From Gekko japonicus (Eukaryota), in contig NW_015174272.1 in NCBI RefSeq assembly GCF_001447785.1, positions 728,286-792,285 of the forward strand: a stretch of 64,000 nucleotides of DNA. Reading direction: 5' to 3'. Position numbers: made by a program. Position 1 is the first letter of the stretch, and every line of letters begins with the position of its first letter. Shown piece after piece: positions 1 through 15,000 of this stretch.

Positions 1-3000
1 TGTTCTGCCATACAAACTGGAAAACCGTAATGGATGAGCTGTGATCAGTGGAATCACTGTAATTTGAAGAAGGGGCCGCCTTAAAGCTGTCGTTAGACAG
101 TCCAAAGTTTTAACACACAAATGCCATTCACATCAACATCAGCGTGTGCCCTTTAAAATGCCTTCAGGCCATATGTGAAACGTTGCATCATGTGGGGAGG
201 AGCTGGTAACAATCTGCTGGGCGTATCTACTCTTCTCTCCACATGGGAATCCCACCGCCCTTTACAATTCCAAATACTTGTTTAGTCTTACAGTTTCAAG
301 ATACAGATGAGAAATTATGCTCACAAGATTGAATGTGCTACCATCTGCAATCCCTGAAGACCATATATTAGGTATACCATTTTCAGCTAGATATTGCGGT
401 TGTGGCTTAGGGATCATAGAAACTGTGGAGCATTTTTGTAATTTGAATGTCCATGGTATAAGGAGGCTAGGGAGAAATGGATTATGCCCCAGAGAAATGA
501 GCCTCCCCCAGACATTTAATTTACTAAAATTTTGATGGCTCTTAGGCCAGCAAATACACTTTTTAAAGCTGAATTCCTTCAGGCCCTGAGAGTTCAGGCA
601 GCTTGTGACAAGACACCTTCTCTAACATAGTATAGCCTGTCCACTCTGGCTTGAATTCTTCTTTTTATTCTTAGCTAGGATAGATCAATACTATGCACAA
701 GACCTGTAGGTCAGAGGTATAGAGAAGAAATATACCCCACTCACATACACACACAATTGGATGTAAATCCTGAGCAAGGAATATTACCTTTTTATCTTAT
801 GATGACTTCTGAATAGGCTACTGTAGTGGCATCTCTGAGGCTCACTAGAATAATCAGAAGTAAACATTATGCATAACATAAAATACATAGAAACACATTA
901 CAAATGTAAATGAAATTTTAAACAGCTATTGCAAGTCATATGAATGAACTGTCATATAAATAATTTTTGTGCAGTTTGGGAAATACTGCCTATAGTAGTT
1001 GGATCCTGTGTCCTTCCAAGCAAGAAACATTCCTCTCACACAACAGGCAACAGGGGTGATTTCATTTGCTTCTTCCTCCTTGGATTAGCTGTCCATGTTG
1101 CATGGCTTTTTATCCACAGAGGTCTCTCAATTTTGGGCATCCCTTTTTTTTTGGTACTCACATGCAGTAGCTAGGGGAAGGGGAAGTCAGGAATGATTTG
1201 CTTCTACCACTACCTTTCCTTGGCACTGCGTAGGATCCAGCCTAGAGTGACTATGATTCATTAGATAAATTTTCTGTATTTTTAATATGTGTGTGTGCAC
1301 CTGGAAGTCATGGTGACCTCTGGAGACTGTGTATGCTCCTGGAAGTCATGGCGACCTCTAGTGACTGATCTCTACTGGGGGCCTGGAGGATGTTCAGAGA
1401 GGTGGCTGAATAAAGCCTGCCCCTGCCTCCCGCCTCTGGTATTCCAAGGAGGTCTCCCATCCAAGTAGAGTCAACCCTGCTTAGCTTCTGAGATCTGACA
1501 ATATCAGGGTTGCCTGGGCTATACAGGTCAGGGCTGTAATTGAAACAGCAATCCCTAAAAGGCCTGCTCAGAATCCTACTGACATCTATTCAATGGAGCT
1601 CACTCCCAAGAAACTGACTTTAGAACTGCACAGGGAAGGATCGTAGTAATATTTCCTTTTTGTTGCTGTAGTCTCTTTAACTCTTTTGAGCAAAGCCCTT
1701 GCAAATACTTAAGGTACAGTCCAGCAGTACTGGCAAATGTTCACTCTCCTTTCACAGCAGTAGTAGTTGTGTGGAACTCCCTGTGTATAAAGTTTGTAAC
1801 TTTTGTATGCTTGAATATTCTCTAATGTTAACTAAAGAATTTTTGTTACCTTAAAATGAACTACAAAATCTTGTACTACTCTTACAAGGATTTTTTTAAA
1901 CCTGAAAGATCCTGAAAGGTCTATTTTTGTGTGTGAATTCATTACTGTTTCTCCTCCACTTAGCTAATCTATTGACAAATGCACCAAAATATTAGCATAG
2001 GGTCCAACAGGGCCGCAGTTCCCCATCAGCTTTTGACTGGCTCTACTGCTACTGATGGACTACTATGAGCTACTGAGCTACCACTTTGTAGTAGGAGCCA
2101 CAATAAAAAGGATGCAATGCTAAATAAAAAAATATCCCGGCCTCATCCTATGGAGGTTGTCACTCACTGAAAGTTGGTTTGAGTAGAGTTGCCCTCCTAA
2201 AAGCATCATGCACATTATGTTCTGGTTTTGTTTCAGTTACAGAACACATAGACATTACCTTTTCTCACTTTTTCTTTTTCGTTACTAAATTCCAAGTTGA
2301 CATATTCTTCTTGGACTTCTTCATGTGCTGAATAGAATGCAAGTAAGAAATAAAAATGGAAAGAGAAAAGGGGTCTTTTGACCAACGAAAACATCCATGC
2401 CTGGGTTGTACAATAAATGAACAATAGCCAGAGTTCCCAGAACTTTATTCTTTCCATTTGACTGATCAGCAATGGTATCTTATGTTCTCTAGGGTTCTAT
2501 CCAATCATCATGTTCTAGAGCTCCAAATAAGGATATGGAAGATGGGAAATTATGTGTCTGAACTGATTTCATGTGCGCAATGAAACTTTTAAATTACATT
2601 TGCTTCTGATAGAATACAGAAAGGACTAGGAGGAGAGATGTATCTGTTTCTTTCATTTGTGCTTAGAAAACTCTTTGCCACACTATTAATCATTCCCAGT
2701 TGCTTAGTTCTCAGGCTGGTAGTTCTTTGCCCATATGCTGCCTGGATAATAGAAAGGTTGGTTGACCTTGAAACAATGAAATTCTGCCCCCTTTTCCTAC
2801 GGTTTTGTTGCATTTCCAAATACTCTGTGTTCCTATAGCTGTGCCTTGTAAGGTAGGCACCCTAAGTCTTTGGACTGGGTTGGGCTATAGATCTAAATAA
2901 AACTCTGGCCACTACAGTTCTTGAGCTGCATAGCGTAAAGATCTTGGGCCTTTTTTGTTTTTTTCTTTCTGTTATTTTCTGTTTAGCCTGTTTTTTAGCC

Positions 3001-12000: not shown

Positions 12001-15000
12001 GACTACTTAAGCAGATGCATGAAATGTCCTAAGCTGGCAGATGCATTAACACACCTGGCATAGAGGGGGGAGGAACTGTAAACAATGCAGTTAAAAGCCA
12101 ATGAAATGAAAAAGGTAGAATGAGCAATCCAAAGCAAGTCTCCTTAGAAGTAAGTCCTGTTTTATTCAGTGGGACTTATCCCAACAAAGTGTTTTTAGGA
12201 CTGCAGCCAGAATCTGACATTTCTATGCAAAGCTTTCATGTATGCAAGATAAAAAACAAACAAACAGTGACCATTCAAAACAGCAGTTATGACTGAGGAC
12301 AAAATCTTCCTGGATTTGCTAAACTAATTTGACATCCATAGAGGAGGGAACCATTTGTCTGTTAACACAGTTCATGTATCTCTTGCAGTGGGCCTTTATT
12401 CACAAGATGCCATAAGATTCTCACTTGTTTTGGACTTAAAGACTAATGTATCTACCTCCCCAGAATTCAGAACAGGAAAACAACAGGGGAACAGAGATCC
12501 TTAACCCATCCTCTGCTTTAAATTGCCTTCCAGGTTCAACTCTTTTTGCCCTCCTCCCTGCCCTCTCTAGGATTCAAAAAGGTGGGTTAAACCTATCTAT
12601 ATTTTAAGCCTCACAGTAGGAGAAGCAGCTGGGCTTAGTTATGATTTTAGAGTGGGAGTGAGCAAGGTATGGCCACAGAGAGAGAGAGAGATACCACTTT
12701 TCTGGTTAAACCCCCCAGCTGTTTTTAAAAATAAGATCATGGAAGTCTGTGGTGATCTTTTCTGCACAATATGTAGTTATCTGTCAAGTTGATACTGATG
12801 ACTGAAGCACAGGGAGAAGTAAGAGAGGTACAAACAAAAATTCCAGAGTTTGCCAGTTCCCGTTTTGAAGCCTCAAACAATATTTTAATAATATTTGAAT
12901 TTGAGGCTTGAGCAGATGCCCTGCACTAGCATTCACTATTGTTCCTCTTCTATTATATTCACTGTTATAATGGGGGGGGGGTTATCCTGTTGCTCCTGAT
13001 CGTTCTCTCTGTCTGGAAGAAAAGGCTGAACTGAAAGAATAAGGAACAAAATGCAGCTTGGAGATATGCACCATAGACTTTTGCAGAGAGAGTGCAACTG
13101 GTTTATAACTTAATAAAAATGTCTTTTCATTAATCCAGACCCACCTCAAAGAAACCACCCAAACAAAAAATCTTGGTTGCATTGAGCACGCAGCCAGCTG
13201 CCTGCGGAAACTTACCATCTTCATCATGCTCATCCTCTTCTTCATCTGATAGAGATGACTGAACTGAAAGGCGGAGGGAAATGTACCTTGAATTAGGTTA
13301 ATCGAATGCAGCATTTTGGAAAAGAGACACCATATAAGAAAGGTCTTACTCTGTGCTGTCAGGAGACACCCAATGACTATAAATGTCAGCATTTTAAATA
13401 AGATTGGAGCCGTTGCTTAGATCTGCAAAATTGCGGTTATGACAAAGAAGTTGTCTTGAAGAAAGAGTTTGCAAGAAATTGAGGAAGTATATTTAATGGA
13501 ATGTTGCATCTGTTTCCGGTGTATGACGTCTGCAAAGTATCTAAGCTCAGTCTCAATTGTACATCTTAGCAACAGAATAATCTAGTACACACAGGGGTTT
13601 CAAACATATGGCCTGGGGAGCAGAACCAGCTTGTCCAGGGCCCTTATCTGGCTCGTGAGCAACTAGTGCAGAGGAGGGAAGGCAGGACGCTGGGTGGGGG
13701 GGGCAAACAGGCACACATGGTGAAGTGTGTATGGTTGAAGCTGTCAAGAAACAGAAAGGACATGGCTAGGGGGCAGGGCTAAGAGGCTGAGCTAAAATAG
13801 TGCCACTTTGGGTCCTTAGAAGAGCCACAGGTGACATGTCAAGATTTGCATGGGACTTCTGAACCACTAAGTATAGCTGATCTAGTATTTGGAATGCAAG
13901 CTTTGCGGTTCTCACGGTGTCTTTTGAAGTTTGAAATTTTAGGACATTCAGGCTGAACTTCCCAGGCATCCTCCTTACATCAAGCTGGCATTGTGACTAC
14001 TGAATTACTGATGGGTGTACTGAAACAATTTCATTGGCTACCAGTTTGCTCCTGGAAACAATTCGAAGCGTCATTTTGAATCTTTTAAGGATACATGAAA
14101 GACCACCCTGGGGAACTTTCAGGGGTGGGGCTAGATGACACATGATGCCATGATGTCACTTCAGTTCATGTAATTGAAAGTAACATCACATGCAACATTC
14201 TAGCAATCCCCCAGTCTCTATGATTTTACTGTAGAGATTTGGGGGATTGCTACTACGCTGCAGTGAAGCGTGACATCACTTCTGGTTACATGACAAGATG
14301 TGATGTTGCCGTATTGTGTGATGAAACGCCACCAGGAGACGCCCCATCTGCCACATTAGTTGGGTCCCCCTACGCCTTTCCCATAGTGACCTGACCACGA
14401 GTCCTGCCTCAAGCCTGGCTTTCTGAGTCCCTACTCTCTGAAGTGGGCTGTGTCACAGCTAGAGATGGAGCTTTTTCTGCAATGATGCCTCATTTATGGA
14501 GTGCCTAATTTATGGTATTTCGAGTGCTGCTGGGTAAATAGTTGTATTTCCCTTGGCTTTTAGTTAGTTTTTATCCTCCCTGATTCAATTGCGGAGTTCT
14601 CTTTTTACATGGAGATTTAAAAAAAAAATGGTTTTAAGCTTTGTTGATTTTGCTTTAATCATCGTCATCTGTATATCTAATAGCAAAACAGTAGGCTCAT
14701 CTGTGGATACATAAACCTGCAGATTGGGGCCATGCCTACCCAAAAAAGACAGTTCTGCAAACTGGAGGGAATCCCCTGGTTTGCGGGGGGGGGGGGGGGG
14801 AAAAAAACGTTTAAAAAATACATTGGGGAGTTTAAATCTCCCCCAAAACACAAAAGGTGTCTGCGCACGGGCAGATGACTTACCTGTCACCTAGTGGCTC
14901 TGCATCCAGTGTGGTAGCTCTTGGGGGTCCTGTGGGAGACATGGCAGCTCTCGGAAGCATGTGGGTGTCACAGAGGCTCTCAGGGGGCCTACTGCAGCCA

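What the first reader, a model, noticed from the sequence alone, without database searches (positions are those of the whole stretch)
792..13392. Complete allergin-1/MILR1-like inhibitory receptor in an unexpected neighbourhood
Seen: eight exons splice into an intact 323-aa type-I protein (leader, 2 Ig, TM, tyrosine-motif tail); the ORF track shows only fragments of it. Known: mammalian MILR1 lies beside PECAM1/POLG2, whereas PRIM1-HSD17B6-SDR9C7-RDH16 is a separate block with no such receptor that I know of. Inference: a relocated or lineage-specific paralogue, possibly one member of a reptile inhibitory-receptor cluster continuing left of the window.
[Added by the scan's program, not by the reader: the finding's places include an assembly gap (unread letters, written N; its length is only estimated) at 8148 to 8160. 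Whether the letters on both sides are continuous or in frame is not known: test that first.]
Basis: partly seen in the sequence, partly recalled or inferred. Interest (0 to 1): 0.7.

Follow-up and report, generated by a model that had tools for sequence, protein, structure and literature searches.

The report
Gecko allergin-1 (MILR1) inhibitory receptor gene
This is the ordinary, intact gecko copy of the inhibitory immune receptor allergin-1 (MILR1), already named so in the public annotation; the only unusual point is that a chromosome rearrangement seems to have placed it near the PRIM1 gene.

Summary
On the minus strand, eight exons with AG/GT borders, all in phase 1, give a 972-nt reading frame of 323 aa: leader, acidic stretch, two Ig domains, one transmembrane helix, and a tail with two canonical ITIMs plus a YVNL motif. 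The N gap at 8148-8160 lies in intron 5 between poly-G runs and crosses no reading frame. Four other geckos' proteins join exons 5 and 6 with no residue missing.

The window is Gekko japonicus. Ig exon 1 is 100% identical to NCBI's 'PREDICTED: allergin-1 [Gekko japonicus]', a 290-aa model that lacks the leader and acidic exons. A profile of squamate relatives listed 120 rows: 103 named allergin-1/MILR1 (squamates, turtles, birds, amphibians), 16 uninformative, 1 shark FCRL5-like, and no mammal. The tree shows one gene per species and largely follows the species tree. So this is the orthologue, not a lineage-specific paralogue, and nothing points to a receptor cluster.

The neighbourhood claim is partly right. 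PRIM1 and one SDR9C-type gene (not three) lie to the right. MILR1 and PRIM1 share a chromosome-sized record in 6 of 8 comparable species, but not in a turtle. Adjacency in other geckos stayed unchecked. Interest is low.

The parts
13350..13392 (-). Exon 1: start codon (13390-13392) and hydrophobic leader MLTFIVIGCLLTAQ; donor gtaaga, phase 1
   Evidence: hydropathy. Homologous leaders occur in G. kuhli, Heteronotia and Paroedura. The upstream ATG used in Heteronotia and Paroedura reads ACG here.
13216..13263 (-). Exon 2: acidic N-terminal stretch (QSSLSDEEEDEHDED), 48 nt, phase 1 to 1
   Evidence: Matched by P0002, P0003 and P0005. Missing from the public G. japonicus model P0001.
11595..11879 (-). 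Exon 3: Ig domain 1 (Cys55-Cys105 of the model)
   Evidence: Pfam PF17736 Ig_C17orf99 8.6e-11 and Ig_2 1.5e-10. 100% identical to P0001.
10576..10857 (-). Exon 4: Ig domain 2 (Cys150-Cys200), a tandem copy of exon 3 (73% aa identity)
   Evidence: Pfam PF17736 2.6e-11. Self tblastn. DNA alignment shows the repeat unit is the exon plus about 70 bp of intron on each side.
9461..9568 (-). Exon 5: stalk, transmembrane helix (about aa 227-250, no charged residue) and basic stop-transfer. Tandem CAG|CAG acceptor: the public model uses the one 3 nt downstream
8148..8160 (.). Assembly gap (13 N) inside intron 5, between poly-G runs; not coding
   Evidence: The e5-e6 junction is unbroken in orthologues.
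3879..3962 (-). Exon 6: cytoplasmic segment with ITIM VTYAEI (Tyr280)
2259..2327 (-). Exon 7: cytoplasmic segment with EEYVNL (Tyr292; a YxN motif, not an ITIM)
792..844 (-). Exon 8: C-terminal ITIM VAYSEV (Tyr317) and stop codon TAA (792-794)
664..669 (-). First AATAAA on the gene's strand after the stop (123 nt downstream): candidate poly(A) signal, weak evidence on its own
   Evidence: 86 matches in the window, 47 expected by chance.

Best explanation
This is the Gekko japonicus orthologue of MILR1 (allergin-1), a type-I membrane receptor of the immunoglobulin superfamily.

Shown by the sequence: a leader, a short acidic N-terminus, two C2/I-type Ig domains that are tandem exon copies, an uncharged transmembrane helix, and a 73-residue tail. 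The tail carries two canonical ITIMs (VTYAEI and VAYSEV, 37 residues apart) and a YVNL motif between them.

Inferred from what is published for the mammalian protein: on engagement of an unknown ligand, Src-family kinases phosphorylate the ITIM tyrosines. SHP-1/SHP-2 dock on them through their SH2 domains and damp activating signals in myeloid, mast or B cells. Because every exon border is in phase 1, skipping an Ig exon or the TM exon keeps the frame. Annotated isoforms of other geckos do exactly that.

The gene's place beside an SDR9C-type gene and PRIM1 is best explained by a chromosome fusion or rearrangement in squamates or geckos, in a repeat-rich interval. It is not explained by a gene duplication.
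For: Gene model:
- Eight phase-1 exons give 323 aa with no internal stop.
- Both Ig exons hit PF17736 Ig_C17orf99 first, above its cut-off (42.2 and 43.9 bits against 26).

Identity and relatives:
- Ig exon 1 is 100% identical to 'PREDICTED: allergin-1 [Gekko japonicus]'. All 8 hits among 87 candidates are squamate proteins, 5 of them named allergin-1.
- A profile of 6 squamate proteins found 143 hits. Of the 120 listed, 103 are named allergin-1/MILR1/'Mast cell immunoglobulin like receptor 1', 16 are uninformative, and the last is a shark FCRL5-like protein at 132 bits.
- Tree of 37 rows, one per species: geckos 100, squamates 98, turtles 98, birds 93. Within squamates the order follows the species tree.
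- Atlas look-alikes of the Heteronotia orthologue: allergin-1 at 0.97 and 0.96, then PECAM1 and FCRL (a lead only).

Function, from papers (passages read):
- Allergin-1 is an ITIM-bearing Ig-like inhibitory receptor. The human long form has two Ig-like domains, and its splice forms drop one of them (PMC3792105).
- It recruits SHP-1 and SHP-2, and its ligand is unknown (PMC9695092).
- Human MILR1 pTyr338 is a known SHP2 site with Glu at +2 (PMC10369915). The gecko C-terminal motif Y-S-E-V also has Glu at +2.
- Exon-skipped isoforms exist: Paroedura X4 lacks the TM exon, and the Eublepharis X2 and Sphaerodactylus proteins have one Ig domain.

Rearrangement:
- PRIM1 and allergin-1 sit on records of identical length in Eublepharis, Paroedura, G. 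kuhli, Heteronotia, Elgaria and Phrynosoma. They sit on different records in Carettochelys (16.86 against 27.09 Mb) and Lerista.
- In Phrynosoma the two locus tags differ by 268.
- The chromosome-level G. japonicus paper reports many translocations relative to Anolis and chicken, and breakpoint regions enriched in LINE/LTR repeats and defence genes (PMC10776941, passages).
Against: - No mammalian MILR1 was among the 120 rows listed (23 further hits were not shown). Orthology to the mammalian gene therefore rests on the names given by NCBI and UniProt sources, on the shared architecture and on the ITIM features, not on a tree of mine.
- In the full-length tree the amphibians fall beside the squamates (98) instead of outside the amniotes. 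This departs from the species tree and probably reflects the reshuffled Ig domains or the long outgroup branch.
- There is no expression or splicing evidence for this gene in this species.
- Three N gaps (18869-18946, 22078-22183, 26827-27131) lie between the receptor and the SDR gene, so adjacency in G. japonicus rests on scaffolding.
- Sharing a chromosome in other geckos does not show adjacency.
- Phosphorylation and binding of SHP-1/2 are inferred, not shown.
Confidence: 0.85

Rival explanations
1. One reading: a lineage-specific paralogue of MILR1, possibly one member of a reptile inhibitory-receptor cluster, with the true orthologue elsewhere beside PECAM1.
For: The neighbours to the right are an SDR9C-type gene and PRIM1, not PECAM1/POLG2. 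The Ig exons have been duplicated or homogenised within squamates, which shows the locus is dynamic.
Against: The searches returned one gene per species with several isoforms. All listed isoforms of a species share one record length, for example Anolis carolinensis, Pogona and Paroedura. The gene tree mirrors the species tree within squamates. The window holds no Ig exon besides the two of this gene. The search covered only proteins of 101-613 aa and the 8000 candidates sharing most words, so a very divergent second copy could have been missed.
Confidence: 0.06
2. The adjacency is an assembly artefact: the receptor and the SDR9C-PRIM1 block were joined wrongly across N gaps in repeats of a short-read scaffold.
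For: Three N gaps lie between 13.4 and 30.6 kb, all in repeats. The public protein's record is a 2.67-Mb scaffold, not a chromosome. In Phrynosoma the two genes' locus tags are 268 apart, and in Lerista the genes lie on different ~6-Mb scaffolds.
Against: Two of the three gaps lie in or next to the two LTRs of a single LTR element. Its LTR pieces match at 98-99% (21399-22000 and 26697-27375), and its gag-integrase-RT order is coherent between them, so that stretch hangs together. In 4 of 4 other geckos with both values, the two genes share a chromosome-sized record.
Confidence: 0.12
3. The gene is an unexpressed or decaying copy that only looks intact.
For: No transcript evidence was available here. 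The upstream ATG used in Heteronotia and Paroedura is ACG in this species.
Against: The frame is open over 323 codons across eight exons, with canonical splice sites. The cysteines, sequons, TM helix and both ITIMs are conserved among geckos. G. kuhli starts at the same internal ATG.
Confidence: 0.03

Closest known systems
MILR1 / allergin-1 (mast cell immunoglobulin-like receptor 1) of mammals, birds, turtles and amphibians
   Same: It is a type-I receptor with one or two Ig-like domains, each on its own exon. PF17736-type Ig domains are present. The tail carries ITIMs, including a tyrosine near the C-terminus with Glu at +2. Exon-skipping isoforms occur. The names given by NCBI and UniProt sources agree.
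   Different: In squamates the two Ig domains are closer to each other than to either domain of turtles and birds. The gene lies near SDR9C/PRIM1 rather than, as I recall for mammals, beside PECAM1/POLG2. The N-terminus of the mature protein is acidic. No mammalian sequence was compared directly.
PECAM1 (CD31)
   Same: It is the next-nearest family by language-model features and by predicted structure. It has related Ig domains and, as I recall, paired ITIMs of the form xVxYxEV in its tail.
   Different: The PECAM1 clusters are 685-761 aa; the six Ig domains are recalled. This protein has two Ig exons and 323 aa.
Fc receptor-like proteins (FCRL2/3/5)
   Same: FCRL5 is the best solved-structure match (1.5e-32 and 1.3e-23), and the Ig domains are of a similar C2 type.
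   Different: The score is a sum over nine weak domain matches (best single domain 23.5 bits). The only FCRL-named row is the weakest listed (132 bits, against 157-588 for the allergin-1/MILR1-named rows).

Membership tests
MILR1 / allergin-1 | Type-I membrane protein: N-terminal leader and a single transmembrane helix without a charged residue | tested here: met
   Kyte-Doolittle windows above 1.6 occur only at residue 1 and at residues 223-237 (19-residue windows; best 2.99 at 227). The TM exon has no K/R/D/E in its hydrophobic run.
MILR1 / allergin-1 | One or two Ig-like (C2-type) ectodomains, each on its own exon, of the PF17736 type | tested here: met
   Both exons score best against PF17736 (8.6e-11 and 2.6e-11, above the 26-bit cut-off), then Ig_2 and Ig_3. 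Human allergin-1L has two Ig-like domains (PMC3792105).
MILR1 / allergin-1 | ITIM(s) in the cytoplasmic tail | tested here: met
   VTYAEI (Tyr280) and VAYSEV (Tyr317) fit (S/I/V/L)xYxx(I/V/L). The ITIM-bearing nature of allergin-1 is stated in PMC3792105 and PMC9695092.
MILR1 / allergin-1 | SHP-1/SHP-2 recruitment through a phosphotyrosine near the C-terminus (human pTyr338, Glu at +2) | not testable with these tools
   The motif is present: Y-S-E-V has Glu at +2, six residues before the end, as PMC10369915 describes for the human peptide. Binding itself needs an experiment.
MILR1 / allergin-1 | Groups with named MILR1 of other vertebrates as a single-copy orthologue | tested here: inconclusive
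   Met for sauropsids: 103 of 120 listed rows are named allergin-1/MILR1, and the tree follows the species tree within squamates. No mammal was listed, and the amphibians are misplaced beside the squamates.
MILR1 / allergin-1 | Conserved position beside PECAM1/POLG2 (the mammalian arrangement, recalled) | not testable with these tools
   The right-hand neighbours are SDR9C and PRIM1. The left side is outside the window, and no vertebrate genome context could be fetched.
PECAM1 | Six Ig domains in a protein of about 700 aa or more | tested here: not met
   The window has two Ig exons and the model is 323 aa. PECAM1 clusters are 685-761 aa.
FCRL | Three to nine Ig domains with strong domain-by-domain similarity | tested here: not met
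   The best single FCRL5 domain scores 23.5 bits; the total E-value comes from nine summed domains. The FCRL-named row is the last of the 120 rows.

The most novel reading that the evidence does not exclude
Squamate MILR1 has a remodelled ectodomain. The ancestral membrane-distal Ig domain, kept in turtles and birds, was lost or overwritten, and the present two domains arise from repeated exon duplication or gene conversion of one domain type. In Liasis and Zootoca the two are nearly identical. In geckos the locus also came to lie in a repeat-rich breakpoint next to the SDR9C-PRIM1 block. If so, ligand recognition by this still-orphan receptor may have changed in squamates.
Probability: 0.4. 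Interest if true: 0.3.

Novelty: already known. Interest (0 to 1): 0.15.

Why it matters
It matters little beyond annotation.
- The public G. japonicus model lacks its signal peptide and acidic exon, and the eight-exon model corrects that.
- The case shows how an 'unexpected neighbourhood' can come from ordinary chromosome rearrangement of a single-copy immune gene, rather than from a new paralogue.
- The domain turnover in squamates could interest people looking for the unknown ligand of allergin-1.

Tried and rejected
- My first last-exon model (792-808, 311 aa) was rejected once the C-terminus of P0001 showed the acceptor at 844.
- Reading exon 7 through to a stop (...GNVYVFCN*) was rejected, because all four gecko proteins continue into exon 8.
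- A look-alike of exon 2 at about 12,970-13,040 is not part of the gene. It is 68 nt to its only GT, by my count from the output, so it would break the phase, and no orthologue contains it.
- The listing of cluster members could not be made. It was meant to give accession numbers as a proxy for gene order in G. kuhli, Paroedura, Heteronotia, Eublepharis and Phrynosoma.
- The Atlas search with the SDR exon gave only generic SDR clusters.
- Literature: 0 papers hold MILR1 + PECAM1 + synteny. 0 papers hold C17orf99 + MILR1. The 5 papers holding MILR1 + chicken + ortholog looked irrelevant from the listing. The G. japonicus chromosome paper mentions neither MILR1 nor PRIM1 in its main text; its supplementary tables of synteny blocks, which could bear on this, are closed.
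- Structure prediction, fold search, complex prediction and the search for related loci were not used. The last covers only bacteria and archaea.
- The joined 323-aa model of the window was not sent to any search. Searches were made exon by exon, or with other species' database proteins.
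Full report
Observation. The gene lies on the minus strand. Reading the sequence and checking borders by script gives eight exons:
- e1 13350-13392
- e2 13216-13263
- e3 11595-11879
- e4 10576-10857
- e5 9461-9568
- e6 3879-3962
- e7 2259-2327
- e8 792-844

All acceptors end in AG, all donors start with GT, and all seven junctions are in phase 1. The sum is 972 nt, or 323 codons plus a TAA at 792-794, with no internal stop. 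I first chose an AG inside exon 8 and obtained 311 aa. Exon 5 has a tandem CAG|CAG acceptor; the public model uses the downstream one and is one alanine shorter there.

The gap. The 13 N at 8148-8160 lie in intron 5, 1.3 kb from exon 5 and 4.2 kb from exon 6, between two poly-G/A-rich runs. No reading frame of the gene crosses them. The residues encoded on either side of the intron are contiguous in the G. japonicus public model and in the proteins of G. kuhli, Heteronotia and Paroedura. These proteins map colinearly on the window. So order, orientation and frame are consistent across the gap, and only the intron's length is unknown. I did not fill the N stretch or look it up.

What the protein looks like:
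- a hydrophobic leader (residues 1-14) and an acidic stretch;
- two Ig domains with the usual cysteine pairs (55/105 and 150/200) and eight N-x-S/T sequons;
- one strongly hydrophobic segment (about 227-250) without charged residues, followed by basic residues;
- a tail with four tyrosines: VTYAEI (280) and VAYSEV (317) fit the ITIM consensus, EEYVNL (292) is a YxN motif, and TSYPGS (271) fits neither.

Both Ig exons hit PF17736 (Ig_C17orf99) first and above its cut-off, then Ig_2, Ig_3 and ig. Among solved structures FCRL5 ranks first, but only through the sum of nine weak domain matches.

Identity. Ig exon 1, searched alone against longer proteins, is 100% identical to 'PREDICTED: allergin-1 [Gekko japonicus]' (290 aa). 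The 8 hits among 87 candidates are all squamate, and 5 are named allergin-1. So the window is Gekko japonicus, not human, and the gene is already annotated. The public model starts at a methionine inside Ig exon 1 and has no leader.

For reach I used a profile of six other squamates' database proteins (A1). It found 143 hits among 8000 scored candidates. Of the 120 rows listed, 103 are named allergin-1, MILR1 or 'Mast cell immunoglobulin like receptor 1' (squamates, turtles, birds, salamanders, a frog). Sixteen have uninformative names or none, and the weakest is a shark FCRL5-like protein. No mammal is listed, and 23 hits were not shown. An Atlas look-up of the Heteronotia protein puts allergin-1 clusters first (0.97, 0.96), then PECAM1 and FCRL (a lead only).

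Orthologue or paralogue. I took one protein per species (36 of the 120 rows, leaving out further isoforms, partial bird entries and unnamed rows) and used the shark protein as outgroup. Geckos form one clade (SH-aLRT 100) with the window's protein next to G. kuhli (97). Squamates score 98, turtles 98 and birds 93. Inside squamates the order matches the accepted species tree: geckos first; lacertids with Rhineura; iguanians; snakes; Elgaria with Varanus. This is the pattern of a single-copy orthologue. Against it, the amphibians fall beside the squamates (98) rather than outside the amniotes, and the outgroup branch is long. Isoforms of one species share one record length, and I saw no second locus in any species. 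Orthology to the mammalian gene rests on source names, on architecture and on published features, not on a tree of mine.

Published features (passages read):
- Human allergin-1L has two Ig-like domains, and its splice forms drop one of them (PMC3792105).
- The receptor bears ITIMs, recruits SHP-1 and SHP-2, and has no known ligand (PMC9695092).
- Human pTyr338 is an SHP2 site with Glu at +2 (PMC10369915). The gecko's VAYSEV has the same feature.

Neighbourhood. To the right of the receptor the window holds, in order:
- LINE debris.
- An LTR element with a long open frame (20962-27396, minus strand) and LTR pieces at 21399-22000 and 26697-27375 that are 98-99% alike.
- A 32-aa SDR fragment at 29449-29544.
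- One SDR9C-type gene on the minus strand, with exons at 40.5-41.0, 39.3-39.6, 37.0-37.5 and 30.6-30.9 kb. Two exons hit adh_short; DHRS9 is the best solved relative at 1.6e-34; the last exon was recognised from recall of RDH16-type C-termini.
- L1-type LINE frames at 42-48 kb.
- PRIM1 on the plus strand. Exon 2 at 59752-59907 is 98% identical to gecko PRIM1 and matches solved primase small subunits at 1e-23 to 1e-25.

Which SDR9C member it is was not determined.

Is the neighbourhood unexpected? No vertebrate genome context can be fetched with these tools, so I compared the length of the longest record that carries each protein. PRIM1 and allergin-1 lie on records of identical length in six species:
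- Eublepharis (188,483,467)
- Paroedura (177,510,557)
- G. kuhli (84,646,816)
- Heteronotia (83,113,065)
- Elgaria (176,344,784)
- Phrynosoma (336,734,412)

The records differ in two species: the skink Lerista (6.52 against 6.08 Mb scaffolds) and the turtle Carettochelys (16.86 against 27.09 Mb). That is 6 of 8 comparable species. In Phrynosoma the locus tags differ by 268. If tags follow gene order, the genes are far apart there.

So the two genes share a chromosome in squamates but not in the one turtle that can be compared. The close adjacency is at most a feature of geckos, or of this scaffold alone. The G. japonicus chromosome paper reports many translocations relative to Anolis and chicken, and breakpoint regions enriched in LINE and LTR/Gypsy repeats and in defence genes (PMC10776941, passages). 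It does not mention MILR1 or PRIM1, and its supplementary tables are closed. A mis-join cannot be excluded, because three N gaps lie between the receptor and the SDR gene. Two of them, however, sit in or beside the LTRs of one coherent element. Adjacency in other geckos stayed unchecked (could not be made).

A side result. The two Ig exons are 73% identical in protein. The repeat unit is the exon plus about 70 bp of intron on each side. In trees of single domains, turtles and birds have two old, distinct domain types. All squamate domains form one clade: 97, and 100/98. Domain pairs are nearly identical in Liasis and Zootoca. A tree that holds all first domains together is rejected (AU p = 0.0009, log-likelihood 235 lower), although I named that group only after seeing the first tree. 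In one search the squamate domains join the turtle/bird second domain with modest support (85). Squamate MILR1 therefore lost or overwrote one ancestral domain and has re-duplicated or homogenised the other.

Verdict. The finding is a correct and careful gene model of a gene that is already annotated: the G. japonicus orthologue of MILR1/allergin-1, an ITIM-bearing inhibitory receptor. The 'paralogue' and 'cluster' ideas are not supported. 'Relocated' is plausible but ordinary. Interest is low.

Noticed in passing
window 20962-27396 (minus strand), LTR pieces 21399-22000 and 26697-27375: This is a young LTR retrotransposon with a long open frame that runs across two N gaps. Its domain order is unusual: SCAN-like gag, zinc knuckle, integrase, and only then reverse transcriptase and RNase H. 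Integrase ahead of RT is, as I recall, the Gmr1-like Gypsy arrangement. The LTR pieces are 98-99% identical.
   Followed up: partly
window 10576-10857 and 11595-11879; proteins P0012, P0036, P0006, P0009, P0011: The Ig exons of squamate MILR1 are repeatedly duplicated or homogenised. All squamate domains form one clade apart from the two old domain types of turtles and birds, and the Liasis and Zootoca domain pairs are nearly identical.
   Followed up: yes
window 12970-13040 (minus strand): This is a decayed look-alike of the acidic exon 2: the same ...tttcag|TTCAG start, an acidic/Gln-rich frame, then a run of ten C. It is 68 nt to the only GT, by my count from the output, so it would break the phase. 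It is absent from all orthologous proteins.
   Followed up: partly
window 29449-29544 (minus strand): A 32-aa fragment is 66% identical to the catalytic-site part of the neighbouring SDR gene's exon 2. It lies just downstream of that gene's last exon and is probably the remnant of a second SDR9C copy.
   Followed up: no
window 13393-13416 (minus strand): Heteronotia and Paroedura start translation eight codons further upstream (MAPVLFK-). Here the corresponding codon reads ACG, so G. japonicus, like G. kuhli, must start at the ATG at 13392.
   Followed up: partly
window 6000-8140 and 42266-48100: Degenerate LINE reverse-transcriptase frames fill intron 5 next to the N gap. Longer L1-type endonuclease and RT frames lie between the SDR gene and PRIM1 (Exo_endo_phos 3.8e-16, RVT_1 9.8e-25).
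   Followed up: partly
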